Shown here: one piece after another, positions 18,157 to 59,720 of the stretch
How positions within the stretch are numbered: position 1 is the stretch's first letter
Layout of the letters: each line of letters starts with the position of its first letter
Assembly: GCA_008632985.1 (NCBI GenBank)
Contig: QPGO01000017.1
Coordinates: 124,001-188,000, forward strand
DNA length: 64,000 nt
Direction of reading: 5' to 3'
Source of the DNA: Psammoneis japonica
Taxonomy: Eukaryota
Notes under the pieces: model-generated
What the model saw: only the letters and a program-made list of their open reading frames with translations
Told to the model about the DNA's origin: nothing
The model's database searches: none
Program-made: the position numbers and the translations under genes

Positions 18157-18296
18157 CGTCTGTTCCACATGATTCATTCCAGGGCTGGCCGGGAGGGAAA
18201 TAAGTTGGGGCTAGTAATGCGTACCATATGTTACTAAATGTAAGGGAAACATTTCAGATCAGATAAATCATCACAACTACGGTCACAGTACTAATA

Positions 18297-24724: not shown

Positions 24725-25198
24725 CTGTGCAGCAGCATCAACAACAGGTTTTTAGTTCTCGGCTTTACTTGCGACCAATATAGAGTGAAGGTCTGCGATT
24801 TTCTGTTTCTCGTGTGCAGCCTTCAATAGTTCCATCTCCTCGTCTTTGGCATCCATCGCTCGTTGGTATTGGATCCTGCGTCAGCTTCCTACATTTTCAA
24901 TTTTTTGATTCATGCTCTGGCTCGCTCATTCACCGCTCGAGCTTCTCTGCTCACCCCTCGCACGTGTTTCCTTATTCAAAATTGATAAATATACATTTTC
25001 CAGTACGGTATGATGTGTACCGTATTCAAAATTCTACAGTACCGTTACTACCGTACCGTACCGTACATATCATACCGGTAGTAGGACAAACCCAAAAATA
25101 TTGTCTTTTTTCGCAGCCAAAAAGTCAGAGTGTCGGAGTTGCTGCAAAAAAAGACACTCTTTGCCTTTTCCGCATGCGTGCCTCCCGCGCAAGCAACC

Positions 25199-28442: not shown

Positions 28443-29533
28443 CGCCGAGACGGCTGTGTCTTCACTTGCCGTGCGGGCGATGGCATGAAATATCGAGTCG
28501 TCTACATCCCCGTGGTCGGCGTCACGGAACAAAACCTTCCTGGCAGAGGCGGGAGGATTCTTCAACACCTTTTTGTCCTCGACCGCTTCCTTCTTGGAAG
28601 ACGCGGGAGGATTCTTTGACAAGGACGAGACGGACACGGGCGCGGAAGAGTGAGAATGTCGCAAAGAACAAACACAAGCAATCCTGACGAAACGTACCTT
28701 TTTGTCATTGACCACCTGACGACTTTCCCGCCACACACGGAACTCCTCGTCCGTTGGGCGGTTCTCCCCGTGGTCGGCGTCACGGAACAAAACCTTCCTG
28801 GCAGAGGCGGGAGGATTCTTCGACGACACCTTTTTGTCCTCGACCGCTTCCTTCTTGGAAGACGCCGGAGGATGATTCTGTGACAAGGACGAGACACGGG
28901 CGCGGAAGAGTGAGAATGTCGCAAGGCACAAACACAAGCAATCCAAAAGCAATTTCTGCAGCGTACCTTTTTGTCGTTAACTACCTGACGACTTTCCCGC
29001 CACACACGGAACTCCTCGTCTGTTGGGCGGTTCTCCCAGTATTCCGTTTCAATGACAAACTTATCGGCAGAAATATTAAACAAACTCGAAAGCGTACCAC
29101 TGAAAGAATCAGACGCATGGGTACCCCTCTTCCACAACCCGCACCCTTTTTCCAGACAACCCATTTTGTACAGACAGTATGCCTTGTCAACCACGCTCAT
29201 CAAGTTGCCCGAGGTGGCATCCACTTGCCCGTTTTCGTCCACTTCAACGTACGCAACCAGGTTTCCGAGACAGAGAAGATGGCCGGACTCGTCAATGGTG
29301 TATCCTTTCCTCACCACGCTGTATTTCTTCGGATTTCCTTGACCATTCATTTTAGCGTTCCCGCGTGTGTCATACACTTGATACATCTTTTTTCCGGAAA
29401 GCAAAGTTGCAACGATTACATCGTGCTGCTTTTTCGTCATGATTTTGCAAGAAGCAACTTGATTCTCGTCGAGTACAAAGTGACGCTTGCGGACAACCTC
29501 GATGGCATTGATGATGTCTTGAATCGAAACCAT
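27870..29533 (-). CDS. Hypothetical ~496-aa protein with C-terminal coiled coil; exons 29533-28967, 28877-28698, 28613-27870
   Basis: Two homologous introns (AAAAAG|gtacg...ttgtcacag/ttgtcaaag|AAT) of 89 and 84 bp. Splicing joins the 323-aa and 360-aa ORFs into one stop-free frame. Confidence 0.75.
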
Positions 29534-30882
29534 TGTTTCTCTTGAAGATGCGTGAAAGCAAGCTTTGATAACAAACGAAAGTGGGGCTAGACGAGTGTCG
29601 TGTGTATCGAACGTCGAGACGATGATTGTGTTCAGTAGCCCCAGTGTCGTCGGCTTTGGTGACCGTTGCTCCGCTTCGTGCTACGAGCTGATTTTGAATT
29701 TGCGCGCTAGAAAACCTCGGTACCGTTAGAATGTGTAGAAATTACGTATGTAGATTGCGTAGAGCAATCCCAGCGCGTGTAGGATTACGTAGATTTGCAG
29801 TTTGAGTTGGGCATCTTTTTTGAAAGCCACCTTCATCCTGAATCCACTGCGACAATGACGAACTTTGCGTTGCTACCGCTAAACGTATAATAAGAGTTAA
29901 ATTTTCCGATGTTACAGATCGACAGACATTATTATGAATTAGCCACATATTACGCCGGCAGTGACATCGAGCAAATCGACTGCGGCTGCCGCCGATCCAT
30001 CACCCGCCGACGGCACGATGCTCGAGAAGGGGGGATCTCACGCGTTGATTGTCGAAATACTATGCAGGTTGCCCTCCAATCAACCGTTTGCGCAAGTGCG
30101 GGAGCCCAGAGACTGTTGCGCTTGTGCCGGTACCGTCTTCATTACTGTATGGCTTTTCTCGCGCAGCCCGCACCTTGCTCATTACTAGAGACATTTTTTC
30201 TGCATCTAAGAATGGTAAGACCAGTAAGTCATCATTTGAAATGGTGAAGCACTCACACACACTCTACAGTACGTACTGTCGAGATAGAAGAAACAGCAGA
30301 AGAAACAACACATTCGCCTACACTTCGTCCCTCTTCCATAACTGCGTGCACATTTCATCCAACCTTCGAACCTCTCTAGACCCCACTAGATACTGAAAGA
30401 TCCACAATCTGATTCTCCAAAGGAACAGCTTTTATCAAAGGACTTAAGTCATGCAGATTGTTGGCATGGAACGGCCACTTTAAGGACTTGCTCGCAGTCC
30501 CAGATATCCATGCTGAGAACTGACAGGCAAAAAACGTAGGTGTCATCAATGCTCCTTCGCGTCGTGTTCCCGGCATGCACTTTTCAGAAATTGTGACGGC
30601 CGAAAAACGACATGCCGTGATTATGCGCCGACTAAGACCCCAAGAAGGATATCAAGCGCGTCACAAGTCCATCTTGATACCAATAGTAGTTACAAAAAAG
30701 AATGTACAGTGGGATGAAGCATAAGGCTCCCAAACCGATACCCTTTTGTCTGCGCAAACGACGTGAAATAGTTTTCGTCGTCACAGATACAATAATCGGA
30801 TGTAGAGTGCCCAGTGCCTACACAACAGAAAAGGGAGCACGCAAAGGCGAGTTGAATAAGGACGAACGGCACCGAGACAACA

Positions 30883-32179
30883 TTACGACAATTGACTTAC
30901 TTCGTTCCATGTTTTTTGTCGTACTTTTGGAAACGCACCGCCGATGGAATGAGTCTGCCGCATGTCGCGGATGAATTTTTGGTTGACTACGCGCACCTCT
31001 CTTCGCTGTTGCCTTTGATATTGTAACACTTTTCTCGTGGCAATTTCGTCTTCGGCATCATCCGAGTCGTCCTCCATTTTTTGTATAGGGAAGGTGGTAT
31101 GTCGTCACCTTCAGCCAACCCGCTGTCGTAGGCATCGTGGGCGTCAGTCCCTACGCCGATGAGCTTGGTATCACCTTCCTCGGCAACGCTACTCTCGTTG
31201 CTATTAGCTTGGACCGGTACGGAAGACCCCCCCCGTGGAAATCTTCGTTCCATTGGTACGAGTTCTAGTTTGTATCGCCATTGTTCAAGATAGAAATAAC
31301 TGCACTTTTAGAATCACAGTCCATCACGATGCTGCTGCCGTTGCTAGCTTGGACCGAACGACAATAACCCCCCTTGCAAATACTCGTACTATTGGTAGCT
31401 TTTGGCTCGCGTTGCCTTGCGACGCTGCTGCGTTTCGCTTGGGAACCTTTGCGTCGAGCTTTCTTCCCAATTTTCTATGAGAGATGGAAAAAAAAAACAG
31501 TTCTAGAATTGAAAAGACAACATGAAATAGAACAAGAAATGAAACTTACCTTCTTGGACTGCGTGGTTTTGAATAAGTAGTATTTCCTCACTAGTATAAG
31601 TTTCTTCAAACGACGCTTCTTTTCTTCTGGTATGCACATCAAGTCCACTTCCTTCGAAATGAACCTTGGTTCTTCCTCATTCGTTTTCTTGAGATCTGAT
31701 TTATCAACCCGCTTGAAAAACATTTCAATGACCCACTCATCAGTGAGATCTCTACATTCTAACTTGTGCCGTTAAGCCAGTGGCCTGGATGATTGCCCAC
31801 ACGTTTGATACCGCTTGGTCACGAGTTCGCTATCGACAGCGGTTCTGTCGAAAATACTCGGAAAGAACAACTTGGTTCTTTCCAGGTTCAATGGATCAGA
31901 GCATTTTTCACCCATTGGCTCTTGAGTGGTAACAAGTGGGTCGACCAGTAGTGCACTTCTGGATGAATGTGGGGAGGAAAACATGGCATTTGGATTGACC
32001 AAATGGAAACCATTGCCATCGTCAGCGCTTGATACACCACTCGTTGAATTGGCCCGCATTCCGCCTCGCGGCATATCAACAAGTGCTAGTGGACAATCAT
32101 TTCTAGCGTTTACACGATCTCCACTGTCCTCTTGTGGCAAATAGGCACCATTCTTGTGTTCATTCATGATGACAAACAA
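30883..32179 (-). pseudogene. Disrupted hypothetical gene
   Basis: ORFs 32179-31772 and 31723-31475 are in the same frame, split by one TAA. gtaagt donor at ~31548 and ctcatag acceptor at ~31476. Further acidic fragments extend to ~30883. No recognisable family. Confidence 0.4.
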
Positions 32180-32189
32180 TCAACAACGG

Positions 32190-32480
32190 ATGATATGTAT
32201 GAACAATGATCGCAGGTAGATGCGGTGCAGCTCTCAGCTCGTTGGCAACGAGATCTGCGGATAAGACGAAAAAGAAAAGAAAGCAGAGTGTGAGCAATGC
32301 AGGCCAGTGATAAGGACTTCCGTATGGATTGATATAAACGGAATGTGCATTGTGCCGGACGATTATCGTCTCTAGTACACTCACTACCGATTTTCAAATG
32401 CCAGTCTTTCCTGAACAAACAGCGGTAGATTCAATTCACATGCCAACTCGACTTGAGCTCGAAACCAGGGCACAAGAAGA
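32190..32480 (-). pseudogene. TatD-family DNase gene fragment
   Basis: PWFRAQVELACELNLPLFVQERLAFE followed by PHLPAIIVH resembles TatD QLxLAxELxLPxFxHxR...xxxHCF. The rest of the gene is not seen. Confidence 0.5.
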
Positions 32481-33013
32481 GCGCCTTTCTTTTCAAACGA
32501 TCGACAAAAGCACAAAATCATTGTGCCATAGTAGTCGATTTTGAGGAGCATACGTTGCAAAGTTGAACTCTTGCAGGAAAGCGCTTGGTCCAAGATGACA
32601 CGATAAGGGGAATCAAATGAAACTGCAAGAAGGCCGGATCAAAGGTGTCTGCATTGAACGGATTGAATTCTGGGTATCGTTCCATGCTTTCCTCGGCAAT
32701 TATTGATATTTATCTCTCAGTGACACTTTCTCGAGTCATAAACATCCCCAGCGTGGCGTGCAGGAATCGCCACAACCAAAGGTACGGAAACATGCATTGC
32801 AAAGCCGAGGGTGCGCAAATGGCTGGATCGGCTTCGATTTAGCGGGTAAGTTGAGTGATATCACTTCTTCTGGCACTCAAAATAAAAATGGGAGATAGTA
32901 GAGGCTAATAAAAAGCATTGTTACTGTCGAACGGTTCCGTAATAGTCTAAAATACCGCTCCGATCCTCATGGTATTGCTGTTAGATGAAAAATGTCACAG
33001 GGTTCGAGAGAGA

Positions 33014-33266
33014 TTCATCGTGGAACCCCACAAATACGCGGGGACCCGTAACCCGGAAATGTGTAGAGTTGTACGTGCATGTATGGGGACTCTTTACGTA
33101 GGTTTTGTACCAGAGCTATCTCGCGAACTAGGCGTTTTTTCGAAATTTTGTCGTAGAAACTGTACCAGTTTTGCGTATGTAGGCTACATGTTTCAGTACC
33201 ACATACAAAAATGAGCGTAGACCTCTACAGGAGGGTCCCCGCGTATTTGCGGGGTTCCACGATGAA
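33014..33266. mobile_element. MITE (253 bp, 34-bp TIRs) nested in the left TIR of the larger element
   Basis: ttcatcgtggaaccccacaaatacgcggggaccc (33014-33047) versus gggtccccgcgtatttgcggggttccacgatgaa (33233-33266), one mismatch. The empty site is visible in the other TIR, and ~6 extra bases (gagaga/gataga) suggest a TSD. Confidence 0.9.
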
Positions 33267-34464
33267 GATAGAGAGGTGTCTCTCTCTTTTTTTTTTGCTT
33301 CCACAACACCTTTCCGGGTTCCCCTCAACAGCCACGTAGAATCGTACACAAAATAAGCACTAGAATTTGAGTTGCAACCATCAAAACACACCGATGTCAA
33401 CCATGAAGACCGCCGCTGCTCCGCCGCCAAGCGGCACGCAACTAACCAACCCGAACATGATAGTCGTGCATCTAGTCGAAGTGTCAAGCATTCTGCCATC
33501 AATCTGGACTCGCATGATTCTGAAGAGGGCTCAGAAACCCACAAGAAACGAGGGGCAGCCAGCTGCGAAACTTGTCATTCCCTGCGGCCTGCGGTGCTTT
33601 CACATTCACGAGGCGCACCGAGAGGCGCAATAATTCCAATCAATTATCGTCGAAGACATGGGCTGTTGATTCAGTTGCAAAGTGTTTTGAGAATCTCCCG
33701 CAGCCAAAGAGTGTCACGAGGAGATGAGCGGCGAGACCGATGTTGATGTTTGATGTTGTGGTGCCACAGATCGGAGGCCATTTGACACATTGTCGATGAG
33801 GTTTCTGATGCATCTGGCTTGTCCATGGATTCTACTCCATTGGAAGTTTGAGCTGCACTGGAGACACTGCACAAGCTTTTGACGTCATTCCTGGAGCCTG
33901 GTCATAAAAACCTGAACGACTCTGCTCGTGCACGTCAAAAGAAAACTCCCACTTGCGAAGCAGAGCATGATCTTTCGCGTTTCAAGGTGAACAGACAGGT
34001 GAGTGCAAACAAAAATCTCCATGCATTCAAACTGCATTGCCTGCTTGCTCACGCCCACAACCTGCTCTCTTTCAGAGCAGGGAGGAGGACATGTCGCAAG
34101 TCTCGCACTCGGACCGCGAGATGACGACAACGACGAGGAAACACACCGACTTTCATGTCGACAAGGTTCCTTTTCATGACTCATTCCAGCTTGCTGCAAC
34201 AAACAGTCCTCATCTGAAGAAGCACCATGGGTGGGGCAAGAACATGATTGGGGAACAATCCAAGTTTGATTTGTTGGTGGAGTTTGATTCGGCGCCACCG
34301 AAAAATGCAGTCCACACTTCCGAATCAATTGCAACATGCTTTGGAGCAACTGTGAGAGGATTGCATTGGAGATTCATCTTGTTGCAACATTGACATTCTG
34401 GGTGCCAATCAAGGCTGCAGCACCAGTGCTGTGGATGCTTGCCAGGCCCCACTCGACATGTTGC

Positions 34465-34770
34465 CACTCGAGAACAGTTGACCACACCGAGACAACACGA
34501 CGCCACCAGCTGAGACTCGACATTTGCTGTTCGAGATGACACAATGCCACTGGGAAGAGACTGCGCATTCTGCTCGAGATGATGCGATGACATTGGAGCT
34601 GGACATTTGCTGCGAGCACTCGAGATGATGCAACAACACTGGAGACCAGATGGTTGCTGGGTCTGCTCGAGACGACACCACTCGAGATCAGACATTGCTG
34701 CTCGAGACAACACAACACCAGTCGAGATGACAGCACAATCACCAACCTTGAATGGTCGTGACATGTCGAG
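34465..34770. repeat. Irregular array of about 10 TCGAGA(T/C) motifs inside the TIR element
   Basis: (c/g/t)tcgaga-tgac/-tgatg/-caac/-cgac recurs at ~34467, 34531, 34573, 34619, 34666, 34681, 34701, 34721. Confidence 0.7.
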
Positions 34771-35389
34771 TGGTGCTCTCCATAAAAGAGACAGTGCTTG
34801 TGCCAACATTGGAGTTGACGTTCACTGCTGCTGCAGTGCGAAGTGCGAAACATCCTTGCACCCCGTCTCAGCACGGCGGCAAGGCTTGCTGTGCCTGCCG
34901 CCAGTTGAGCGTGGTCAACAATGCATTCAAAAGTGTCTCTTTGAGTCATTCAGGATGCCTTTCCAAAAGCAAGCCCAACTAGAGAGTGCAATGTCATGAA
35001 AAACCGGACCGCTTCATTGCCATTGTTTGTTGTTTTGATCTTGCGGTGGTTGCATCAAATTCTAGTGCTTGTTTTGTGTGCGATTCTACGTGGCTGTTGA
35101 GGGGACCCGGAAGATTGTTGTCGAAGGAAAAAAGAAAAAAAAAGAGGACACCTCTCTCTCTCGAACCCTGTGACATTTTTTCATCAAACAGCAATAGATT
35201 TCAGATTGTGGATTGTGGTTTGTGCGCGTGCGTGACTGATGAGTCCCGTCTAACTTTATGTCTGCGCCTCGCGCCGCCGGTCGGCACGCACTGGGTCAGC
35301 ATGTATTCAGATTTATAATGTCCTGAAGATTGCAAACGGCATTGTCATTACCTGATGTCATCATAATTGGATAAGAACATGAATGGCAT

Positions 35390-37841
35390 CATACATTCAA
35401 GATTTGCCGCACCGGCAGGTGTGCATGGTCCTGTGTCAAGAGAAGCACAGTGCACGGTGTTGGCTCCGTCTGCTTGCAAAGCGAACAGATGTGGGTTGTC
35501 TTTGCACCACAAACCCTGCAGGCACCCTGCAACAAGCAATTTGCAAGCACTCCACTCTTGGTTTTCCTGCGCTTGTTTGTTGGGGTAAATGAGCGTTGAT
35601 TCCACCCACCGGCAATCCCTCCGCACACCAAAAGGGGTTGAAAGGTTTCTATGAGCGAATGGCCACGAGGCTCAATGAGTCACTCTGCAACCACAGTCAT
35701 CGTCAATTGACTCTTCCAAAAGATGCTCACAGAGCTCCTTTTCACACTCTGTGTGACCGCTCCAGGAGCTCCAGGTGGGACCTCGCAATGCTGAGCTGTG
35801 TGGCGCAATTGTTTTTTGTCAGGCGCAATTGTTTTTTGTCATCCAACGCATGTCTCACATGTGCATTTCCACATGTCCTGTTTTGTGAAGCCAAAAGCTT
35901 TCTGTCATCTGCACTCATGACAACAAAAATGTGCTGGGCACATTCTTTGATGTCTGAAGAATGCACCCAGGCATGCTGCAACGAATGCACTTCATTCAAG
36001 TGTGGAGGAGGAGACACGCTCGCAATCATTGACATGCCCAGAGCTCCCACTCAGAATTCTGTGGGCCCAATGTCACAAAAAGTCCCACCCAGCAGGACTG
36101 GAACCTGTCTGTCACAGATGATGATCATGCCAACAACAGAGAAATTCACATGGTTGGACTGGTCCAGGGTGCCCAACTTCTGTTTGATCTGCAGGTTGTC
36201 TTGCCTGCTCCTGTTGTGCTGATCAATCTTTCCACAAGTGTCACAGCATGTCTCTGCAGCTTTGGATTGGGGGATTTCAAGCTCTTGCCGCTCAGGATCT
36301 GCGCTCATGCTGACTTCCTCAATCTGTCGCCAATGAGTCCTGGAGCATGGCGCTCCTGCATCCAACGACAAAGTGTTGGCAATGAAACACCTTCAATCAC
36401 GATCCATCCAGACAAAGGCAAGTTTGTTTGCACAACCATCTTGCCGCAGTGTGACAACTCCATGGTGTGTTTTGTCCACACTCAGTGAGCTCAATGCTCT
36501 GCAGATGCTGCATGGGAAACTTCCGTGTTGCAGTCTCAACCACACCAATGAACTGCATGCCAATGCGCTCCATTTCTTCTGCAGCACCAAATGATGCAAA
36601 GTGTGAATCTGCGCAGATGATGCAATCTGTTGTCCTCCTGGACACTTGCGTTTTCCACCTCTGCTGTCTCACCAACTTCAGCCTTGGCATCATGCCACTC
36701 TGTCCACACGCAGAATTTTGCATCTCACATCCATTCTCCTGCTTGCGATCAATTGCCACATGCTGTGGGAGGCCAATGTTGGTCAAGCACCCACCAAGAC
36801 CATGCCACTTTGAGGTGGACTTGTCAACCCAAACAGCAGTCGTCAACCAATCTCCAACGGCACTCTTCAGATGACATTGTTTCTGGTTGCTCATTTGGCT
36901 GATGATCACCAAACCAAATTGAAGCATGCAAGGCATCAAATCTGTTTTGAGACATGCCGGTCTGTCCAAATGCCGGTGCCCCGAACGACACTTTGATGGG
37001 ATGGTTGTTGCCCAGAGAACCACTCTTGAATTGAGCTCAAACTTGGTTGCTGGGATGCAAACCCAAAAAAACTTGAGCAACTCAGACAAGTTTGTGTCAG
37101 CTGCTTGCCTCTTCCTCAGTTGCTGGTTGGCAAGAACAGTGATGGCATTGAGGTGGTCGGGTGGGAACATCATCACAAAAAAATCCAATCGGGAAAAACA
37201 CCCCACGCGGTCTCGACTGTTTGGTCCCAACCATTCTTCCAAACCAGTTTTCACCATCCATTGTCTGGCTGGCACTGGACCATTGACAGTGCACCCATGT
37301 GCACATCCTGCTTCTGCGTGCCATGGTGCTCCATGCGCAGCAGTGACAGGTTGCTCCCTTGTCTTGGGAGTCGCGCCGCTGCTGCTGGCACTGCTGGTGT
37401 TGTCGTTGCCCACGTCAGGAGGAGCATTTGTTGCATCCTGAGGAGCCTGGGGTGCTGGTTGACTGTTGTTGGAGGAGGGAGCATTGGAATTTGCTGCTGG
37501 GTTGTTGCTTGTTGCCACTGCGCTGGTGTGGCAGCAGCGGCCTGCTGCGTTGGTTGTGGAGGGGGTGGGTCACCGGGCATCACGTTGCAGCTGTTGAGAT
37601 CCTTCCTTTTTAAGGCATCACCACCAAGCTCATGCACCACAGTGACAAACCATGCACATCTTCCATTTGGATTGGAAGTTTGGGCCTTCAATTCTGCATG
37701 AACGACTGTCCCACTGACCTGTTTCATCTTCTTGTTGGAGCCATGCCTTCGGGTGCACTCAGCCTTGCTTGTCACATGAACGGTGTTGACGTGGACTCGA
37801 GCACCAACTTGATGCCTTGGATCTGGTGCCATGGTTGCCAT
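35390..37841 (-). mobile_element. Degenerate piggyBac-family transposase gene (stramenopile type), interrupted at ~35625-36120
   Basis: N-terminal VGARVH...AECTRRHGSN; core FFVMMFP, ELLKFF, WVDKSTSKWHGLGG, GLPQHVAIDRKQENGCEMQNSACG, ADSHFAS, FIGVV, IDQHNRSRQDNL; C-terminal QGACRVCGAKTTHICSLC cysteine-rich domain. Frameshifted. Confidence 0.85.
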
Positions 37842-39919
37842 GAGGAGGTTGTGTCATGATGGTTGTCAAAGAACGTTGGCAACTGCATTGTTGTTCGTCT
37901 CCAAACATCGATCGACTTTTCATCATCATCGATTGAGCGCAAAAACTCAACGCGCATGAAAAATTTGTTGCCTCTGTTGAGATGCCATCTGTTGAAGCCA
38001 TTGGACATCATGTGGAACCGCCAATTTTGGTCTTAAGAGGTTCAAGAGCATGAAGAACAGCGCAGCTGTGCAGTTTGACATTGCTGGTGTGTTTTGAGAT
38101 TTAGTGAGGGGGGTCAAAAAATTGCCTCAATTGAGGTTTTTACCTCAACTGAGGTCCTTGGTAGACTGGACACTAGCTGGCTCCAGAGCAGCAGAGGCAG
38201 AGAGGGAACAAGTCTCCAGCCGCCAGCTGCTGGCTGAAAAAAGTCTGCTCGTCAGTGCGTTTGGGGGTTTTGCAAGGCAGACTCTGCTGCCAGGGTGGTG
38301 TCATGCATTGCATTGAAACATGTTTTGGTTCTTCTCTTTGCATTGCCCTTTTGTTGCTCTGGCTCCTGTTCAGTTTGTCCCAAGCAACATTTTGTCATGG
38401 CAGAGCAACAATTTTTGCTGTGCTCAGCCACAAAATGGGCAGCATCACTTTCGTCGGAGCAACATCATTTGTTCAACACAATGACATTTTTGCATTTCCC
38501 CCCTTTGGTGTCCCTCCTTGACTCTGCCACGTGTGGGTTCTACGTGGATTGGATGCCTGATCAATGATTTCCTGATCCCACATGTCTGCACGCGTTTTTC
38601 TACAGTGTTTGCTTCAACAGACCAGTTCAACCAAAAGACCACAATCCAAAGACACATTTGTGCATTTGTTCAATTGGTTCACAATTTTTGATGCTTGCGT
38701 GGACCCCACGTGACTGTGTGCGTGATCAGGGAAAAAAGGATCCATTGAATCCACGCGTGTGTCTTTTTCACTGCCATGGAGTCCTGCCATTTTGGACGCC
38801 TCTTCCAGCAATGCACCATGGCCAATTCTGTTGCTTTCCAGCATCTCCGTTGCTGTGGGTCTGTGGCCACAGAGTCTGGTTGTCCTTGGAAGAAGGATGC
38901 CAGCTGCAAATGGTCTGTGAGTGACAGGAATCCCCACCTGTCTGATTTTCTTGTTTCAACCAAGTTGGGGCTGGAAGCTGTTGCTTCTAAATGCAACTTT
39001 TCCCTGCACCCATCTGATTTGGAGTGGCTTGACTGAGACTTTCAGATGTTCGTGACCCCACATCTGCTCATGCCAACAAGCACTGCAGAAGCAGAGTCCA
39101 CTCTGGCAAGTCCTTGGAAGAGCTCAATTCTGAGCTTGCTGCAGACAAGAAGCCTTGGAGACTTTGTGCTTCTCCCAGGTTTGCTTCCTCTGTTTCCCCA
39201 GCTGCTGAGGAGAATTGTGAGATGTGGTGCAAGAAGCTGTGGCATTTTCTTGCCATGATTGGTGATTGTGAATCCATGGTCATGCTCTTGCCTCATCCAC
39301 CAGCAGGCTCCAAGTGCCCAACTGTTGCACAGCAGTCCCTTCAGCATTTTGTGGTTCATCATTGCAGGGCCTTCAATCAACCATTGAAGTCTTCCTTTGT
39401 TGATTCTGTTGCCTCTGACCCTGTTTTGGACATCTTTGGCAACAACATCAGATGTGAAGGTTGCGTCAACAACACCAAGGGATTTGCCAACATTTGTGCC
39501 ACCTTGACAGTTCTTGGTGGCAAGCTGGGCACAAATGGCAACTGCAGAGAGCAGCATCAAGACTGTTCGCAAAGGTGTTGTCTGACCCAAAAACCAGAAG
39601 TTGGCTCAGCAGGAACTGTTTGAGATTTTTCAACTGCTTTGTTTCATGCCACAACCTTTCCATTGAAAGCCTTCTGTCATCACACACCTGTGTCACAGGC
39701 AGCAAGTTTCATTGTGACTCTTGCAATGCCAGGTCCCCATCATCAAAACACTGGTGAGTCTGAGTGGCCAACAGACTTTTTGTTTCCCTTTCATTTTTAG
39801 CCAAAATTCAGCTTTCTGCATTGCCATCTTGTCCCACAATTGCTGCACTTGCAATGCCAATCCTCCATTTCTGACACAGCTGCCCCTTGTCCCACTGAAA
39901 ATGCAGGGGTCAGCACAGC

Positions 39920-40760
39920 AGCAGCCACACACCCACAGATGGATGGGGTTTGCTTCTGGACTGGCTCTGGTAGAGTGTTGCATTGTGAAGGCCATGGGCA
40001 ACTCTGTTGGGTGCCAGGGGACACAGCAGGGACAATGGCAGGGCATTGGAGCACTTTTGTTGTGTTGATGTGGCCCCATGTCAGCCTGCAAAAACAGGTC
40101 TTGCCACACCAGCCACACCCACAGAGTGAGTGGATCTGCTTTTTGACTGGCTCAAGTGCAAGGTTGTCTTGTGATGGACATGGGCAACTCCCTTGGGTGC
40201 CAGGGAACCCAGCCAGGACAATGGATGGGTGTTGGAGCACTGGTGTTGTGTTGACGTGGCCACTTGTTGCCCTGAAAAAACAGGCCTCACACCACACCAG
40301 CCAGACCAGCAGAGTGAGATGATGTGCTTTTGGACTGACTCAAGTGCAAGGTGGTCTTGTGATGGACATGGGCAACTCTCTTGGGTGCCAGGGGACCCAC
40401 TTGGGACAATGGATGGGCGTTGGAGCACTGATGTTGTGTTGATGTGGCCACTTGTTAACCTGAGAAATGATGTCTTGCACAGTCTCACTGTCTCACCACA
40501 CCAGCCCAACCACCAGCAGAGTGAGATGATGTGCTTTTGGACTGACTCAAGTGCAAGGTTGTCTTTTGAAGGACATGGTCAACTCCCTTGGGTGCCAGGG
40601 GACCCAGCAAGGACAATGGATGGGCATTGCATCGCTGGTGTCATGTCGATGGGGCCACATGCCAGCCTGAAAAAACAGGGCTCACCACACCAGCCACACC
40701 CGCAGATGCACTGGGTGTTCTTTTGGACCAGTTGAAGTGCAATTTTGTCTTGTGATGGTC
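39920..40760. repeat. Tandem repeat, ~186-207-bp unit, about 4.5 copies
   Basis: catgg(g/t)caactc...ttgggtgccaggg(g/a)ac recurs at ~39994, 40179, 40367, 40574. Confidence 0.9.
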
Positions 40761-42198
40761 TGGGAGCAAGAAAGATTCTGTGTTGCAAGGGAAAAGCTGG
40801 CCTTGCAATTCAACATTGCTTTAGAATCTTCAGCGATGCACATGAAAAAAAAGAAAGCTGAGATCAATTTTCTAGCCCCAACGATGGGAAAGCAACGGTC
40901 ACCTGTGATTCCTCATCATTGAAGTCATCATGGCAATGGCCTGAAGCATCTTCAGGCTGAAAAACAAAGCCAACATTTGTCTCCATCAACTTCAAGTTTC
41001 TTGCACATTCCAAATGCTCATGGAGGCATCGCAAATGCTCAGATGAGTGGTGCCCAATCTCAAGATTTGGTTGGACATCTTTTTTGCTGTGATCCCTCCT
41101 GTTGTTGTCATGACCAGACAACACCTCTTCACCCTGTTCTGGCAAGTCATCTTCATTGCTGTCACTGTCATTTTTCAAAGTGCCACAAAGAACTTCATTT
41201 GGCCCCAACCTTTCCTCTGCCATGTTGCAAAAACTGTCAACCCACTTGGTGTTCATCAAAAAATGCCCGGGTCTCAACAACTTCACAACAACAGCTGCTT
41301 CTTTCTCTCAGTGTCAATGTCCTGTGACTTCTGGGCAACACATGCAGCACAGATCAACTCAAACAGGTTGTCAATCACCCAATTAGAGTTTGCCAACACT
41401 CCAAGATTCACGTGCACTTTGTTGCACATTTGCTCACCACAGCTGCCTCTTGCTGAAACAAACATTTTGGCAACTTCAAGATTGAAACATTCCTCCAAAA
41501 AATTTGGTCCATTGGAGAAAGGCTTGTTGGCCTTTGCATGCAGGTTCACCTCAAGGTGTTCTGTTCTTGCCTTGAACCCTTCAAGAACCATCTTGCAGTG
41601 TGTCAACAAGGGCGAGTTTCTCACAAGTCCCAAACTTTGCATGGCAAGGGAATCATCAAAAGGCAGCTTGCAAACAACAGGTGAATTAAAGGCTGCATCT
41701 TTGAGCAATTCATCAGAAACTCATGCATCCCAAACACCTTTTCAAGAATGGCTTCAGGGACATCTTCCAGCTCCCTTTTCATGTGGGCTTCAATTTGGAG
41801 GATTTTAACACCAGATGTGCTTTTTCAAAACAACTTTGGCTGAGTTGACAAGCAGAGACCAGATTGCCCACCTCTGCAACAGATGTTGTTTCCTCCCAGT
41901 GCAGTTGCAGGCAGTCTTGACAACACTTTGGCTGGAATGTTTTGACTTGTTGCACCTCCTTCTTGAGCCAGACAATGCTGATTCAGGTTCTGACTCAGCA
42001 CAGAAAATGCAGTCATTGTGGGTCAGTCACAGGATGCAGGTGCCACTGCGAGATCAGGAATGACCGGATCCAGCATGAAGTGCACAGCCAGTCCAGCGAA
42101 TGAGTCATTTTTTGGGGAAAATGCGCGGTCCCACCAAAAGATCAGGAATGACCTGATCTGGCACATTTTGCACAGAGATTTCAACAGTCAAAGTCACA

Positions 42199-44186
42199 TT
42201 GCAAATGACTTTCAAGTGTGGGATCTACGCACGCTGCAGCAGGGCCCTGCCCAATCTGGCGCCTGCAGTCAGAAAAAAAAAAACAATCACACAACAAGTG
42301 CATGAGTTGCAACAAGAAATTGATTCAATTGCTGAGCTGAAAAGTGTGGCAATGTCAGCAAATGATGCTGTTCCTCCTGCAGGTGGGCTGGGTGGGATGA
42401 AAAACAATTTTGGTGAGCATGAGTCACAACCAGAAGAGGCTGCTGAGCCAGGGTTTGGATTTGCCAGGGTGCCAAGTGAGAGTGAGCAAGAGGAGGAGGA
42501 GGAGGAGGAGGAGGTGGTGGTGGAGGAGATGGATGAGGAGGAGGACATGGAGAAGCAGGAGGAAGAGGAGGAGAAGGAGGAGGTCCAAGATCTGCCACCA
42601 TTGCATGATGCAACATTGACCCAGCTTGGAGGATCCATTTTTGGAGATGGAGTTTGCCCAAAAGGTGTTGTCATGGATGCAAAGAGCAAATGCAAAAACA
42701 AGACTGAGGGCAGGTGCATTTGCCAAGAGGCTGTTAAGAGTGTCTGCAAAACTTTGGGAGAGTGTGTGTGCAAATCACAAGTTGCAAATGACTTCAAGAC
42801 AAAGCACAAAAAATGCAAACAGGACAGCAAGGGGGTTCTCACAGAGTGGGTTGCTCCAAGGCCCAAGTGCAAGGACAACACTTCTGTGATTTTTGTTTGT
42901 GCAAAGTGCTGGGAGGAGAGAAAAGAGGTTGAGTTTGTTGCAATTGGGAGATGCAGTCACAAACCAGGCAAAGTGGGAATTGAAGCGAGGCAAGTTTTCC
43001 ACCATGATGAGTGCTGCTGCAAACCATTTGAGGAAAGCTGCTCAATGAGAAACCATGGGCATGAAGTTCTGAAGTGCGACAAGGAAGAGATTCCAAGGAC
43101 AACCCATGATGCGATGGTGAACAGAACAGAAGGACATGAAGCTGGAAGAGAGGTGCCACCAGGCAATCACATCAACTTTGGGAAAAAGGTGAAGGCTCTG
43201 GACAACAGAAGTTGTGAGTTTTTGCCCTCCTCCAAATGTGAAGAGGTGGACAAGTGGGAGCACTGGAGGGCCATGCTCAGATTCCAGCTCCACATGTCCA
43301 ACTCCTTGAGCATGAGTGAGGAGCTGGCTCCTTTTGTGTTGGACAAGGAATTGTTCCAGGAGAAGCTGCTGCAGGAAGGCCAATTTTCCATTGCCATGAT
43401 TGAGAGATGTGAGGTGAGACCCAAGAACCACCACTTGAAGATTGCTGGTGTGTCTGCTCTTTTTGGAGGACACTCATTGCTGCCAGAAAGAGAGAAATGT
43501 GTCCACCAGTTGACACACAAGGATGCACCCAAGTTTGAGGAATTCATTGAGTCAACTCATTGCAAGGAATCATGGGAAGGAAGGTGGAGAGGTTCATTCC
43601 TTCTTCTTTCCTAATCCCCTTGCATGGATTCAGGAGGCTCTTCATTGTGAATGATCTTTGGTTTGTTCAGGTCAATGCAGGCAGTGAGTGCATCATTTTC
43701 CAGGGCACAACCAAACATGGTGGAGAGACCTGGAGCATGCACAAGGACAAGTCATGGAGGACAAGCATCCATGGGCATGTGGACCACATGCCCACATGTG
43801 ATGCTGATTGCAGAATTGACCACTCAAACATCAGTGTGGATCAAAGCCATGAGGGCTTGCACATGTCAGCAAAGCACCTGGCAACCTTTGCAGGAGAGGA
43901 TGTGACCAGAGAGGTGGGGCACGTTGGTGAGGAATTCACAGACATTTGCAAAAATGCACAGCTCAAGGATGTTCAGAACTTTGGATTGAGGCACCAGATG
44001 ACAAGGAACTGGGTGATGGAGCAACAAAAGGCAGATGATTTGGAGAAACAACTCAAGAAACAAGGCAAGGTGAAATTTGATGAAATGTTGAATGCTTGTG
44101 TGGTGATGCAGCATGTGGTGGGCAAAATGATGAAGGAGAGGGGAAAAGGAGATGCGTTGACAATGTGGGGTCAACAAGGAAGTTGA
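42199..44186 (+). pseudogene. Relic gene: acidic N-terminus, Cys/Lys-rich middle, possible 2OG-Fe(II) dioxygenase-like domain
   Basis: Protein-like 471-aa and 208-aa overlapping ORFs with a poly-Glu tract and no Tyr after the first few residues. Motif order HQLTHKD ... SSFLIPL ... IIFQGTTKHGG ... WRTSIH. Confidence 0.45.
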
Positions 44187-47100
44187 GTGGACAGCCAATG
44201 CAAAAGTTGGAGATTCTGGTGAGGGAAACAAACAAGTTGAGCAAACAGATGAGTGAAGAGGAGCAGCTGCAGCTTGCAAAGAGCAGTCAGCAGAGGCAGG
44301 AGGAGGAGGCTTTGGTTGATGTGATTGAGAAGCTTAAAGGAAGTGACAGTGCAGAAGAGGTGGCAGCAGCAGTTGACAAAGTGACAGGTTCCAAAGAGGG
44401 CAAATCAATGTAGAAGGAGAGCAAGGAGTCAAGCCATGAGAATGCCACCAGGAGAAAGAAAAGACCAAGAAGAAATTGAACAAAAACACAGGTTAAATTA
44501 AAAAGAGTTAGGATCCTAGAAACTACAAAGTTGTTGTGATCAACAGCTCAGAGAGGAGAAGGAAACTGTTGGTCTGTGCTGCAAAGCTTGGAGCAAGGCA
44601 GCCATGTCAGCCAATGGAAGTGTGTTTGCAGTGCTGACAAATTGAATCCCAAAGGGTCCAGATTCTTGAACAACACCCAGAAAGTCAGCCAAGAGGGGGA
44701 TGCCACCAGGAACAAAGCCACCTCCACACTCAAACTTGAGCATGTGATCAAAAGAGATCAGTGGGAGACAAGAGTGGACAGAGTCCATGCAGTTGCAGTC
44801 ATCCTTGAATGTCAGGCACAAGCCCCCACAATCTTCATCCAACATGCCCACCCTGGGAAAAACTGAAAGAGCTTGAAACAAAACTTGAGTGGCTTGTGAG
44901 GCAGACACAAGCTGCCCAAGATGAGCTCAATCTTTTTGCAGAGGGGGTCTGCAAGTGACAGATTCTGAAGGGCCCTCTCAAACACCTCCACAGAGAACAT
45001 TTCTGCCATGGGGTTGCTGAGGGGGGCACCATGAGTGGGAGACTCAACCACCAAAAGCAGATGCTCTTGAGGGTCTCTGCTGCTGCCCTCCTCTGAGGCA
45101 TTCTGTCTGCCACAAACCAGCTGGCAGAGGCCAAATGCAGGACCAAACCTCAAAGGACAAACAGAATGACAATGAGAAGAGTCTCCAGGGGTGAAGGCAC
45201 AATTGACAAGGGTGCTCCATGCCTCCCCAGGGAGTTGCTCATGTTGCTGCCAAGACTGGGCAGGACTTGGGTCCACACAAAATCAGCAACTTCAGACCAA
45301 TCCAGAAAGCAGCCTCTTGGGTGGCTGTGCACAATGGTCATGGCAAAGGGTGTGGGAGGGAGGGAGGGAGGGAGGGAGCTGAAACAGAAATCAAGGAAAG
45401 GAATGCAATGACAATGGGCTGGCACGGTGAGCTGCTTTGTGTCAGTGGCATTGTGTGGCTGTTGGGATTCAAAGCATGCAAATGAGTCGTTGCTGCTAAA
45501 TGACACATGGAAACATAAATGGATGAACATGACAGTTCACGAAAAGTGCAACATTGAAAAACATTGTGTCATTGATGATTGCAGAAACAACAAAGAGGGA
45601 CATTTTGTCACACAGTGGTGCGCACGTGCTTTCTGCACTGGATCAGCAAATTGTTGATCTGGCACAGCTTCAATGGCATGCTTTTTTTTTTTTGTGGGAT
45701 TGAAACAAATCAAAGCATTCATTGCATCAATGTTTGACACTTGAGGGGCGATTCGCGCAGCAGAAAGCATGCGTGCGAGTTTCCGGATCAGCAAATTCCT
45801 GATCTCACACTGTTGGAAATTTTGGTGAATCTTCCACCCATGCACTCTACATTGCTGCACAGGAACTGTGGTGGGAAATGAGTCTTGCAAGGCACACAGG
45901 ACATTGTGTGTTGTTAGGAAGTCTGAGCTCAACAAGCAAATGGGTGGAGCAACAGGTGAGCAACATTTCATTGCTCAGCAACTGTCTGTGCAACATTTTC
46001 CTGGCACGCACCTGCATGCACGAAGCTGTCCTAGCCACTGCAGGGCCCCAAAAGGGTTTGGATGAGCACACGCAAATGTGAAGTGGTCAGCCCCGCCTGC
46101 TCATGACTCAGCACTTTGCTGCAGTGAAAATTGAGCACGGCAGGAATCAGATGATTGCAAAAACAGTCAGATGACTTCTGCTGACAACAATGTAAACTGC
46201 ACCTGATGCACATTCTGTGTTCTTGAGTGCATGAACCAACCATTTGAAGCATCAGCCCCACATGCAGTTGCTTTGCTGAACTTCACCAAAATGACCCTGC
46301 TTGTTTTTCAGGAGCTCTAATTTGCACAGAAGCCACATGCTGGTTTCTGTGCATTTGCGCAGATTTTGTGCTGGCTGCATCACAGGGGGGTGTTGTTCGC
46401 TGGCCCTGATGAACTCTTTCTCTGACATGAAACATTTTTCATGATGGCTGGCACATGACTGCCGGCTCAGTGGACAAGTTTCAAGTGGTGCAAACACGCA
46501 GATCCCATCTCCAATTTATGGCACTCAGATTTGTTTGGTGCAAATCTGCACAGCATTTTGTGCGGGGTGCATGCCAACGGTCTGTCAATGGCAGCGAAGT
46601 TTTTTTTTTTGCTGTTCAAAAATCTTGATGCTGAAAACACTTGTCAAACATTGGCTTTCGTCACTCACTAGAAAACACCCAGTTCTGGTGAGTGACGAAA
46701 GCCGATTTTTGATGTCATCCAATGTGAAAGCTCCAGAACAAGAGCAAAGCATGGAAACAAGGTGTCCCACAAGCAATTTGTGCAGCATGCAAACCTGTGT
46801 GAGATTTCTGAACCCCGGTTTAAATGTCACATTTATGATGTGATCAACACTTGGAAGACAAATGCAACAGTTGTTTTCACTTGAACAAATGCCAAATTTT
46901 CAACAACAAACACTTGCTTTGCGCTCACTCTGACTGACACAACATGTGTTTGACCTTGTCCAGCTCGTCACGAGCTTTTGATTGACATGTGGGTTGTGGG
47001 GTCTGAGAGGTCATCCTAAAAAAACTTCTCAACCATTGACAGACTGTCGGCAAGCAGGGATGACACCAAGCACTGCATTGCACACAAAGCCATGGTGCTC

Positions 47101-59635: not shown

Positions 59636-59720
59636 CAGCCAGCCAGCCAGCCAGTCTGTCTGTCTGCCTGTCTGTCTGTGTGTGTGTGTGTGTGTGTGTC
59701 TGTCCATCAGTCTGTCTGTC
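59636..59720. repeat. Compound microsatellite (CAGC)n-(GTCT)n-(TG)n
   Basis: Read directly from the sequence. Confidence 0.9.

What the first reader, a model, noticed from the sequence alone, without database searches (positions are those of the whole stretch)
35390..37841. piggyBac transposase with conserved tyrosines recoded to His or Cys, following the context rule
Motifs I recall for this family (RRYG, WYGLGG, LPxYVAIDRKP, ADSYFAS, YYxxCxxIDxHNR) read RRHG, WHGLGG, LPQHVAIDRK, ADSHFAS and CCDTCGKIDQHNR. Each His codon follows a purine (AGG CAT, TGG CAT, CAG CAT, TCA CAC: RTA>RCA), and the site preceded by C became Cys (TGC TGT: TAY>TGY). This gives protein-level direction of change and shows how the process inactivates transposases without needing stops.
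Basis: partly seen in the sequence, partly recalled or inferred. Interest (0 to 1): 0.85.

Follow-up and report, generated by a model that had tools for sequence, protein, structure and literature searches.

The report
Diatom transposon relic stripped of TA
A dead piggyBac-type transposon gene in a diatom genome has lost every tyrosine codon because it lies in a stretch of DNA where almost every T-A step has been turned into C-A or T-G, the mark of a little-known genome defence so far reported only once, in an unrelated alga.

Summary
Window 37841-35390 (minus strand) is a piggyBac-like (PF13843) transposase relic.

It has 0 Tyr in 781 aligned codons, against 2.7% in homologues. At 9 reliably aligned Tyr-rich columns it reads His 4 times and Cys 5 times.

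The cause is not specific to this gene. Window 1-10.9 kb and 33.4-63.2 kb have lost about 97% of TpA and much CpG, with a matching CpA/TpG excess. The gene island between them is normal. Independent read-derived contigs at about 60x carry the same letters, so this is not an assembly artefact.

The context rule is a roughly 4-fold preference, not a law. TA survival is 0.6% for RTAY, about 4.5% for RTAR and YTAY, and 30% for YTAR. The His/Cys split in this element alone is not significant (p 0.15-0.28).

The relic also has 6 frameshifts, an in-frame TGA, deletions and an insert.

The closest known case is TpA-only hypermutation in Bigelowiella natans (2026 preprint). I found no diatom report.

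Two 99.2% identical metagenomic copies of a related element differ at 34 sites, 27 of them at TA, which suggests the process is ongoing.

The parts
35389..37841 (-). piggyBac-like (DDE_Tnp_1_7) transposase pseudogene, from putative start ATG to last stop
   Evidence: Pfam PF13843. tblastn of 199 homologues gives a best total of 471 bits, with no hit elsewhere in the window. Frameshift-aware alignments to P0051 and P0035.
37570..37841 (-). N-terminal domain with the RRHG motif (His codon CAT at 37745-37743)
   Evidence: Aligned to 'CRRRYG' of P0051 and 'CSRRYG' of P0035. The column is 51% Tyr in 37 homologues.
36117..37350 (-). DDE catalytic core holding the Tyr-column codons listed under evidence
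   Evidence: Tyr-column codons: 36990 TGT, 36804 CAT, 36762 CAT, 36603 CAC, 36389 TGT, 36248 TGC and 36245 TGT. The three acidic positions align as VDKS, CADSHF and KIDQHN to homologues. The first two also align to piggyBat 9c0f through P0051.
36393..36395 (-). in-frame TGA in place of a conserved Arg
   Evidence: The column is 95% Arg, and CGA to TGA restores the consensus.
35750..36109 (-). extra sequence inside the transposase with five TGA stops; it overlaps a high-copy repeat
   Evidence: Unaligned codon runs. Logan word depth is 7,041-12,358 over 35614-36415, against about 60 elsewhere.
35473..35586 (-). C-terminal Cys-rich domain (CRVCGAKTTHICSLC)
   Evidence: tblastn hit of P0004 residues 556-592. 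Aligned to P0051.
33400..63200 (.). TA-depleted, CpG-decayed compartment that contains the element
   Evidence: TA counts are 1-16 per 2 kb against 115-144 expected; TG and CA are in excess.
1..10900 (.). second TA- and CpG-depleted compartment
11000..33400 (.). gene island with normal TA and CG (RPS6e, LSM, zf-CW, protein kinases)
35195..35392 (.). 200-bp island that keeps 10 TA, directly after the transposase stop

Best explanation
The feature is a dead copy of a diatom piggyBac-like DNA transposon. It lies in a silenced, repeat-derived compartment of a diatom chromosome. That compartment has undergone DNA-level hypermutation aimed at the dinucleotide TpA: each TA became CA or TG, which is an A-to-G change on one strand or the other.

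Every Tyr codon is TAY, so all tyrosines were erased. A change of the A gives Cys (TGY). A change of the T, which is the A on the opposite strand, gives His (CAY).

The process prefers an A followed by a pyrimidine: TAT and TAC are hit more than TAG and TAA, by about 4-fold. As a result, R-TA-Y sites go first and resolve either way, RTAR resolves mostly to RCAR, YTAY mostly to YTGY, and YTAR (including TTAA) survives longest.

CpG decay to TG/CA, as expected from cytosine methylation, acts on the same compartment but more slowly. The element keeps 41% of its CpG and 2% of its TpA.

Shown here: the identity of the gene, the loss of TA with a matching CA/TG gain, its direction, its restriction to a compartment, and the flank preference.

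Inferred: the chemistry is enzymatic adenine deamination (A to inosine, read as G) on chromosomal DNA by a TadA/ADAT-like or other deaminase recruited to silenced DNA, serving as a genome defence analogous in logic to fungal RIP.
For: Identity of the gene:
- PF13843 hit.
- 6 word-index homologues with E 8e-48 to 1e-27.
- A profile search finds 7,671 relatives.
- Alignment to full-length homologues over about 710 residues.
- The host is a diatom: RPS6e in the gene island is 93% identical to Helicotheca tamesis and Ditylum brightwellii. Named homologues come from Fragilaria crotonensis and Nitzschia inconspicua.

TA loss:
- The element has 3 TA against 158 expected. CG is 68 against 167. TG and CA are at 1.8 times expectation.
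- The compartments keep 117 TA in 39.6 kb. The gene island has 917 in 22.4 kb.

Direction of change:
- 9 of 9 reliably aligned Tyr-rich columns read His or Cys.
- 0 Tyr in 781 aligned codons, against 2.7% in homologues.
- At 61 mismatches in conserved columns, a TA reversion restores the consensus in 14 of 48 opportunities. Other transitions do so in 13 of 84.

Context preference:
- Survival is RTAY 0.006, RTAR 0.046, YTAY 0.042 and YTAR 0.30.
- A multiplicative half-site model reproduces 8 of the 10 four-letter contexts within about 25%; ATAA (0.061 observed against 0.038 modelled) and the sparse ATAC (2 sites; 0.011 against 0.006) fit less closely. Survival by the 3' neighbour of the A is T 0.056, C 0.099, G 0.447 and A 0.676.
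- About 76% of lost RTA became RCA, against about 26% of lost YTA becoming YCA.

The letters are real:
- A read-derived Logan contig of run X1 (2,050 letters, word depth 64.7) lies on 36202-38251 with 1 differing letter and no gap. Its depth equals that of the gene island (58.1), so the reads are not a CA/TG mixture.

In situ and recurrent:
- Paralogous repeats inside the depleted compartments show 66 CA-versus-TG double differences. The gene island shows 5.
- Two database homologues are also Tyr-poor and carry His or Cys at Tyr columns. P0137 has 0 Tyr in 342 aa. P0056 reads H C H C C H at 6 of 9 columns.
- Metagenome loci L069 and L075 are 99.2% identical over 4,051 bp and differ at 34 sites. 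27 of these are TA against CA or TG: RTAY 14, YTAY 9, RTAR 4, YTAR 0.
- Those changes cluster in patches. 18 of the 21 changes in L069 fall in 3403-3925, and all 6 in L075 fall in 2800-2987. Both outcomes are interleaved within a patch.
- Other near-identical locus pairs show few TA-type differences, for example 3 of 72 and 2 of 41.

Precedent:
- Mutation-accumulation lines of Bigelowiella natans show hypermutation restricted to TpA, giving TpG or CpA, in integrated viral DNA (bioRxiv 10.64898/2026.01.13.699255; I read the abstract, Results and Discussion).
Against: - No unmutated copy of this same element was available, so ancestral bases are inferred from proteins and from the gene island used as a proxy for composition.
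- The His/Cys split by preceding base is not significant in the element (p 0.15-0.28). It is not seen in the 11 direct Tyr events of L069/L075: 5 His and 3 Cys after a purine, 2 His and 1 Cys after a pyrimidine. Pooled p is 0.28.
- The back-conversion enrichment is only marginal (p 0.05).
- CA-versus-TG double differences between paralogues are not enriched in R_Y flanks: Y_Y 15, R_R 10, R_Y 8, Y_R 3. These pairs overlap and are not independent.
- The supporting reads come from one study. It may be the source of the assembly, so it excludes consensus errors but not library-level chemistry.
- No enzyme was identified. Sequence alone cannot tell adenine deamination from a thymine-directed route.
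- The hosts of L069, L075, P0137 and P0056 are unknown.
Confidence: 0.8

Rival explanations
1. The process is real but acts on thymine. The T in R-T-A is modified or misrepaired, for example as an oxidised or otherwise modified thymine that pairs with G, giving T to C. Adenine deamination is not involved.
For: RTA to RCA and TAY to TGY are reverse complements, so every count fits equally well. Both outcomes are interleaved within the L069 patches, so there is no strand mark to decide between the two.
Against: No enzymatic route from T to C is known to me (recalled). Adenine-to-inosine deamination is an established chemistry, and the B. natans authors favour it, though as a hypothesis only. Nothing in my data discriminates between them.
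Confidence: 0.12
2. No dedicated editing system exists. A slow, passive mutation or repair bias of heterochromatin has removed TA, and methylated CG, over a long time.
For: TA loss and CpG loss share the same compartments and nearly the same borders. Much of the compartment is old and unrecognisable: only ankyrin relics were found among 122 ORFs.
Against: TA loss is far more complete than CpG decay in the younger piggyBac block, at 2% against 41% retained. L069 and L075 differ almost only at TA (27 of 34), in tight patches of 190-520 bp; that looks like bursts, not slow drift. In B. natans the measured rate is about 1000-fold above background and occurs in only some lines.
Confidence: 0.08
3. 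It is a sequencing, base-calling or assembly artefact at modified bases. The true DNA has TA, and the true protein has Tyr.
For: Only one study's runs hold the stretch, and that study may be the source of the assembly.
Against: A contig rebuilt from raw reads at word depth 64.7 matches 2,050 bases with 1 difference. Its depth equals that of the normal gene island, which rules out a half-and-half CA/TG read mixture. The element is also broken by frameshifts, deletions and an insert. The same signature appears in unrelated metagenome assemblies.
Confidence: 0.03
4. ADAR-like RNA editing of transcripts was followed by reintegration of the edited copies.
For: A-to-G with a 5' U/T preference resembles ADAR editing (as discussed in the preprint).
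Against: piggyBac is a DNA transposon with no RNA intermediate. The signature covers 30 kb of mixed non-coding DNA, tandem repeats and several element types with shared borders. Both strands are affected. The 3' preference is for a pyrimidine, whereas ADAR prefers a 3' G (recalled).
Confidence: 0.02
5. Fungal-type repeat-induced point mutation (C to T at CpA) or plain CpG decay explains the composition.
For: CpG is depleted: 0.41 of expectation in the element and much lower in the older parts of the depleted compartments, at 5-45 CpG per 2 kb against 107-131 expected.
Against: RIP creates TpA, but here TpA is destroyed. CpG decay cannot remove TA or turn Tyr codons into His or Cys.
Confidence: 0.01

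Closest known systems
TpA-restricted hypermutation of integrated viral DNA in Bigelowiella natans (Mettrop et al., bioRxiv 10.64898/2026.01.13.699255, 2026)
   Same: The changes are A to G or T to C exclusively at TpA, giving TpG or CpA. They are confined to particular genomic regions of foreign or mobile origin. TpA-depleted, CpA+TpG-enriched clusters in that genome are enriched for DDE transposase and reverse-transcriptase domains. Activity is burst-like and not constitutive.
   Different: The host is a diatom (stramenopile), not a chlorarachniophyte (rhizarian). Depletion here is near saturation: TA is at 0.02 of expectation in the element, against Rho 0.45 in their NCLDV region. The targets here are transposon- and repeat-derived compartments. 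A 3' pyrimidine preference and coincident CpG decay are seen here; neither is mentioned in that text, where my term search found 0 hits for 'flank', 'trinucleotide' and 'CpG'. Their evidence is experimental rates, mine is comparative. Their supplementary tables could not be opened.
Repeat-induced point mutation (RIP) of fungi
   Same: Region-targeted transition hypermutation that degrades mobile DNA and recodes its proteins, leaving a dinucleotide signature that can be read from composition.
   Different: RIP is C to T, mostly at CpA, and enriches TpA. Here TpA is destroyed and the change is A to G. The 83%-identical kinase gene duplicates in the gene island are untouched, so duplication alone is not shown to be the trigger.
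piggyBac superfamily transposases (Pfam PF13843; piggyBat structure 9c0f)
   Same: It has a DDE_Tnp_1_7 core with three aligned acidic positions and a C-terminal Cys-rich domain.
   Different: It belongs to a divergent clade with named diatom members and its own N-terminal domain (P0051 against 9c0f scores only E 5e-4). This copy is a pseudogene, and no terminal inverted repeats or TTAA duplication were found.
Methylation-driven CpG decay of transposons
   Same: CG has become TG or CA in the same compartments, with little flank dependence.
   Different: It explains only the CpG part. It is slower than the TA loss in the piggyBac block.

Membership tests
piggyBac superfamily (PF13843 DDE_Tnp_1_7) | Match to the family profile above the curated cut-off | tested here: met
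   33.4 bits against a 22.4-bit cut-off. Because of frameshifts, the match covers only profile positions 4-65 of 349. The rest of the core aligns to PF13843-bearing homologues.
piggyBac superfamily (PF13843 DDE_Tnp_1_7) | Three catalytic acidic residues (DDD) | tested here: met
   The D of VDKS, of CADSHF and of KIDQHN align to the invariant D of homologues. The first two are also placed on piggyBat 9c0f through P0051. The catalytic role itself is recalled, not tested.
piggyBac superfamily (PF13843 DDE_Tnp_1_7) | C-terminal cysteine-rich domain | tested here: met
   CRVCGAKTTHICSLC at 35586-35473 aligns to homologues.
piggyBac superfamily (PF13843 DDE_Tnp_1_7) | Terminal inverted repeats and TTAA target duplication | tested here: not met
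   No convincing terminal inverted pair among 100 pairs (25 listed) found in 34900-38500. The ends may have been erased by the hypermutation.
piggyBac superfamily (PF13843 DDE_Tnp_1_7) | Intact reading frame (an active element) | tested here: not met
   6 frameshifts, 1 in-frame TGA, deletions of 17 and 14+6 aa, and about 360 bp of extra sequence.
TpA-targeted A-to-G DNA hypermutation (B. natans type) | Changes confined to TpA, giving CpA or TpG | tested here: met
   TA is at 0.02 of expectation and CA/TG at 1.8. Tyr columns read His or Cys in 9 of 9. 27 of 34 differences between L069 and L075 are of this type.
TpA-targeted A-to-G DNA hypermutation (B. natans type) | Restricted to discrete regions of foreign or mobile origin, leaving host genes untouched | tested here: met
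   Borders are sharp within 200-600 bp at about 10.9, 33.4 and 63.2 kb, and the housekeeping gene island is normal.
TpA-targeted A-to-G DNA hypermutation (B. natans type) | Directly measured elevated mutation rate | not testable with these tools
   This needs mutation-accumulation or pedigree sequencing. The L069/L075 pair is only an indirect sign of recent events.
TpA-targeted A-to-G DNA hypermutation (B. natans type) | Adenine deaminase as the agent | not tested
   No whole genome is held for this window. In the preprint too, this is a hypothesis only.
Fungal RIP | C to T at CpA with a gain of TpA in duplicated DNA | tested here: not met
   TpA is lost, not gained.

The most novel reading that the evidence does not exclude
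Diatoms run a dedicated DNA-editing genome defence that deaminates adenine at T-A-pyrimidine on both strands of silenced transposon chromatin. It acts in bursts, reaches saturation, and is faster than CpG decay. Together with Bigelowiella this would make TpA editing a widespread, possibly ancestral SAR-clade counterpart of fungal RIP. The T-A-Y preference would be the fingerprint of a TadA/ADAT-type enzyme retargeted to DNA. piggyBac-like elements in natural populations would still be under attack, as the 27 of 34 differences between two metagenomic copies suggest.
Probability: 0.5. Interest if true: 0.9.

Novelty: new member of a known kind. Interest (0 to 1): 0.75.

Why it matters
If this holds, diatoms, a major group of marine primary producers, have a transition-hypermutation defence against mobile DNA that is chemically opposite to RIP. 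So far that defence rests on a single 2026 preprint in another lineage.

The piggyBac relic gives protein-level polarity: Tyr in homologues, His or Cys here.

The window gives a quantitative target preference (TAT and TAC over TAG and TAA). Candidate deaminases can be tested against it in vitro.

There is also a practical consequence. Erasing TAA and TAG leaves such DNA open in all six frames. Gene callers then emit spurious long 'proteins', such as the Tyr-free homologues P0137 and P0056 in public sets. Similarity searches, in turn, under-detect the transposons that are really there.

Tried and rejected
**Steps that gave nothing**
- Whole-genome search: no genome is held for this window.
- Self-BLAST found no second copy of the element in the window. 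A tblastn of 199 homologues found none elsewhere either.
- Terminal inverted repeats and TTAA: nothing convincing.
- Pfam on 122 ORFs of 110 aa or more from the depleted compartments found only two ankyrin relics.
- The search for related loci with the Tyr-poor homologue P0056 found nothing in metagenome contigs.
- The second scan, with alignment A1, used patterns that contain W-Y. It could therefore only recover copies that keep that Tyr. None of the 80 loci is as depleted as the window; the lowest TA ratio is 0.29-0.39 of expectation.
- Earlier findings of this scan: nothing on this genome or sequence. The listed phage notes do not bear on this case.

**Tests that were inconclusive**
- Flank test on CA-versus-TG double differences between paralogues: inconclusive.
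- His/Cys against the preceding base: not significant in any data set.

**Sequencing runs**
- No RNA holder is listed.
- Run X2 covers only the gene-island part of the laid stretch. Its kind is only guessed, so the missing cover of the depleted part is not used as evidence.

**Literature**
- Six literature searches gave no report of TpA hypermutation in diatoms. They cover only the held open-access and bioRxiv library.
- The B. natans supplementary tables, which list the mutated sites and could show flanks, are closed.
Full report
**What is at the coordinates**

On the minus strand, 37841-35390 carries the remains of a piggyBac-type transposase.
- The longest open piece (36400-37569, 390 aa) matches Pfam PF13843 DDE_Tnp_1_7 at 33.4 bits against a 22.4-bit cut-off.
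- A word-index search gave 6 homologues with E 7.8e-48 to 1e-27 and 33-49% identity.
- A profile built from them found 7,671 proteins at E up to 1e-3, and 1,117 at up to 1e-30.
- Named relatives come from the diatoms Fragilaria crotonensis and Nitzschia inconspicua.
- A tblastn of all 199 fetched homologues hit only this place in the window. The best total was P0051, with 471 bits over 747 aligned positions.
- My own frameshift-tolerant protein-to-DNA alignment runs from 37811 to 35461 against P0051 (residues 13-722 of 750) and from 37826 to 36117 against P0035 (residues 4-611 of 761).
- The three acidic core positions (VDKS, CADSHF, KIDQHN) and the C-terminal Cys-rich motif are in place.

The copy is dead. 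Against P0051 it has:
- six frameshifts (37502, 36981, 36838, 36468, 36116, 35674);
- an in-frame TGA at 36395-36393 where 95% of homologues have Arg;
- deletions of 17 and 14+6 residues;
- about 360 bp of extra sequence (36109-35750) with five TGA stops.

That extra sequence overlaps a repeat whose word depth in read-derived contigs is 7,000-12,000, against about 60 elsewhere. No terminal inverted repeats or TTAA duplication could be found.

Every quoted string and codon pair is present.

I aligned 45 homologues of 550 aa or more and mapped the element's codons onto the columns. Ten columns have at least 50% Tyr.
- One of these (35884, Lys) lies in the badly aligned insert region, and I set it aside.
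- The other nine read His four times: 37745, 36804, 36762 and 36603. The preceding bases are G, G, G and A.
- They read Cys five times: 36990, 36389, 36248, 36245 and 35731. The preceding bases are G, G, A, C and C.

With the threshold lowered to 20% Tyr there are 20 columns: 6 His, 8 Cys, 4 Phe, 1 Trp and 1 Lys. All 6 His follow a purine. Of the Cys, 5 follow a purine and 3 a pyrimidine.

The aligned translation has 0 Tyr in 781 codons, against 2.7% in homologues. His and Cys are raised by about the same amount.

Homologues do not carry His or Cys at these columns: at most 1 of 43-45 sequences carries either residue at each of the nine strict columns. The one sequence that does so repeatedly, P0056, is itself Tyr-poor.

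**The cause lies in the compartment, not the gene**

Across the window, TA is at 0.25 of expectation, CG at 0.50, and CA and TG at 1.57 and 1.56. This is the average of two very different states.
- Window 1 to about 10.9 kb and about 33.4-63.2 kb hold 1-16 TA per 2 kb against 115-144 expected, and mostly 5-50 CG.
- 11-33.4 kb is ordinary.

The ordinary part carries RPS6e, an LSM protein, zf-CW proteins and protein kinases. RPS6e is 93% identical to those of the diatoms Helicotheca tamesis and Ditylum brightwellii, so the host is a diatom.

The depleted parts are almost unrecognisable: 2 of 122 long ORFs hit Pfam, and both are ankyrin relics.

The lost TA and CG are matched by gained CA and TG.

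In the piggyBac block, TA is at 0.02 of expectation but CG is still at 0.41. At the 33.4-kb border, TA drops about 800 bp before CG does. TA loss is therefore faster than CpG decay, and separable from it.

A 200-bp island right after the transposase stop (35195-35392) keeps 10 TA.

**Is it real DNA?**

A contig that Logan rebuilt from the raw reads of run X1 (2,050 letters, mean word depth 64.7) lies on 36202-38251 with one differing letter and no gap. The gene-island contig next to it has depth 58.1.

Equal depth argues against a mixture of CA-reading and TG-reading molecules, which a strand-wise misreading of modified bases would produce.

The run may be the one the assembly came from. It therefore excludes consensus and polishing errors, not every library effect. 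The same signature in unrelated assemblies (below) covers most of that gap.

**The context rule**

In the depleted compartments, 117 TA remain in 39.6 kb: YTAR 77, RTAR 22, YTAY 15 and RTAY 3. The gene island has 917 in 22.4 kb: 145, 273, 204 and 295 in the same order. Survival is thus 0.30, 0.046, 0.042 and 0.006 (chi-square p 1e-34).

A model in which each strand's A is hit independently, at a rate set by its 3' neighbour, fits 8 of the ten four-letter contexts within about 25%; ATAA (0.061 observed, 0.038 modelled) and the sparse ATAC (0.011 against 0.006) fit less closely. Survival by neighbour is T 0.056, C 0.099, G 0.447 and A 0.676. TAY is therefore roughly four times more mutable than TAR.

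A trinucleotide budget suggests about 76% of lost RTA became RCA, against about 26% of lost YTA becoming YCA.

These figures use the gene island as a stand-in for the ancestral composition. That is an assumption.

For Tyr codons (N-TAY) it predicts about equal His and Cys after a purine, and mostly Cys after a pyrimidine. The element shows 4:3 (or 6:5) after a purine and 0:2 (or 0:3) after a pyrimidine. That fits, but the sample is far too small (Fisher p 0.28 and 0.15).

**Back-conversion**

At 217 columns with a consensus of at least 60%, the element matches 156. For the 61 mismatches, the consensus is restored as follows:

| Single change | Opportunities | Restores consensus |
|---|---|---|
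| TA reversion | 48 | 14 |
| CG reversion | 51 | 12 |
| Other transition | 84 | 13 |
| Transversion | 366 | 21 |

The enrichment over other transitions is in the predicted direction but marginal (p 0.05). The restored residues are the expected ones: Tyr from His or Cys, Leu from Pro or Ser, Ile from Met, and Arg from Cys, His, Gln, Trp or stop.

**Independent cases**

Two database homologues from metagenomes show the same recoding.
- P0137 has 0 Tyr in 342 aa. It reads H, H, C, C at four of the six Tyr columns it covers.
- P0056 has 6 Tyr in 741 aa. It reads H C H C C H at six of nine columns.

Among 80 metagenome loci that encode relatives, L069 and L075 are 99.2% identical over 4,051 bp and share a frameshift in the transposase.
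- Of their 34 differences, 27 are TA in one copy against CA or TG in the other.
- By context: RTAY 14, YTAY 9, RTAR 4, YTAR 0. YTAR makes up 22% of the TA present (P of 0 in 27 is 0.001; RTAY excess p 5e-4).
- In contexts with one favoured half-site, the favoured one was used 10 of 13 times (p 0.046).
- The changes sit in patches. 18 of the 21 in L069 fall within 3403-3925, and all 6 in L075 within 2800-2987. CA and TG outcomes are interleaved, so both strands are hit in one patch.
- Other near-identical locus pairs show few TA-type differences: 3 of 72, 2 of 41 and 2 of 22. CG-type differences outnumber them in each of those three pairs.

This looks like recent, burst-wise activity on a related element in an unknown host.

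Eleven Tyr codons differ between the two copies. After a purine there are 5 His and 3 Cys; after a pyrimidine, 2 His and 1 Cys.

Two further observations come from inside the window.
- Paralogous repeats in the depleted compartments show 66 CA-versus-TG double differences, against 5 in the gene island. This fits changes made in place after duplication. Their flanks gave no clear test of the rule.
- A 115-bp inverted pair at 33266-33380 and 35047-35161 differs by two TA-to-TG changes at TAY, while a shared CTAG survives.

**Mechanism**

Shown: region-restricted conversion of TA to CA or TG on both strands, with a 3' pyrimidine preference, faster than CpG decay.

Inferred: enzymatic deamination of adenine to inosine in chromosomal DNA of silenced mobile sequence, acting as a genome defence.

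The obligatory 5' T and the TAY preference recall the U-A-C context of the TadA tRNA substrate. That is my recollection, not a tool result.

A thymine-directed chemistry at R-T-A would leave the same pattern and cannot be excluded from sequence.

Fungal RIP is excluded for the TA component because it creates TpA. RNA editing is excluded by the contiguous, mixed-content domains.

**Comparison with what is known**

The only report of this signature that my six literature searches found is a 2026 preprint on Bigelowiella natans. I read its abstract, Results, Discussion and a term search; its supplements are closed.
- In mutation-accumulation lines, 231 of 302 new mutations fell in two integrated viral regions. 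Nearly all were A to G or T to C at TpA, at about 1000 times the background rate, and only in some lines.
- TpA-poor, CpA+TpG-rich clusters elsewhere in that genome were enriched for DDE transposase and reverse-transcriptase domains.
- The text does not mention flanking bases, CpG or diatoms.

The present case is therefore a new member of that kind in another lineage. It is much closer to saturation, lies in transposon compartments, and adds a measurable flank preference and a protein-level read-out.

**Verdict**

The specific 'His after purine, Cys after pyrimidine' statement is a tendency that this locus alone cannot establish. The element was disabled in many ways, not only by recoding.

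The wider phenomenon it exposes is real and of high interest.

Noticed in passing
window 35195-35392: A 200-bp island keeps 10 TA, including RTAY sites, inside the otherwise TA-free domain, directly after the transposase stop. Word depth there is 277-360, so it is a moderately repeated piece. It may be a later insertion or an untargeted spacer.
   Followed up: partly
window 33266-33380 and 35047-35161: An inverted pair of about 115 bp (86% identical) brackets a 1.7-kb block that has lost TA but keeps CG. The arms differ by two TA-to-TG changes at TAY, while a shared CTAG survives. It may be the ends of another DNA transposon.
   Followed up: partly
window 35750-36109: About 360 bp of extra sequence inside the transposase, with five TGA stops, overlaps a very high-copy repeat (word depth 7,000-12,000 in read-derived contigs). 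It is probably a small element inserted into the relic.
   Followed up: partly
window 34000-39500 and the depleted compartments in general: With TAA and TAG erased (TAA 1, TAG 1 and TGA 66 on the element's strand), the DNA is open in all six frames: 58 ORFs of 60 aa or more in 5.5 kb. Gene callers will emit spurious proteins from such DNA. The Tyr-free database entries P0137 and P0056 look like examples.
   Followed up: partly
window 48695-49033 (-) and 55587-56237 (+): Ankyrin-repeat relics are the only other Pfam-recognisable coding remains in about 40 kb of depleted DNA.
   Followed up: no
window 39882-40758, 61490-62088, 62235-63081, 692-1085: Tandem arrays inside the depleted compartments. 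Their copies differ by many CA-versus-TG double changes (66 in all paralogue pairs, against 5 in the gene island).
   Followed up: partly
window 21908-24379 and 25982-28442: Two protein-kinase gene copies, 83% identical over 2.5 kb, sit in the gene island with normal TA and CG. Duplication as such has not drawn the hypermutation.
   Followed up: partly
L069:1-4051 and L075:1-4051: Two metagenome contigs with the same frameshifted piggyBac-like gene differ at 34 sites. 27 of them are at TA, in two tight patches. The host is unknown.
   Followed up: yes
L064, L041 (whole loci): Two further metagenome loci with relatives of the transposase are partly TA-depleted (0.31 and 0.39 of expectation) with a CA/TG excess (1.59 and 1.48). 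They may be intermediate stages.
   Followed up: no
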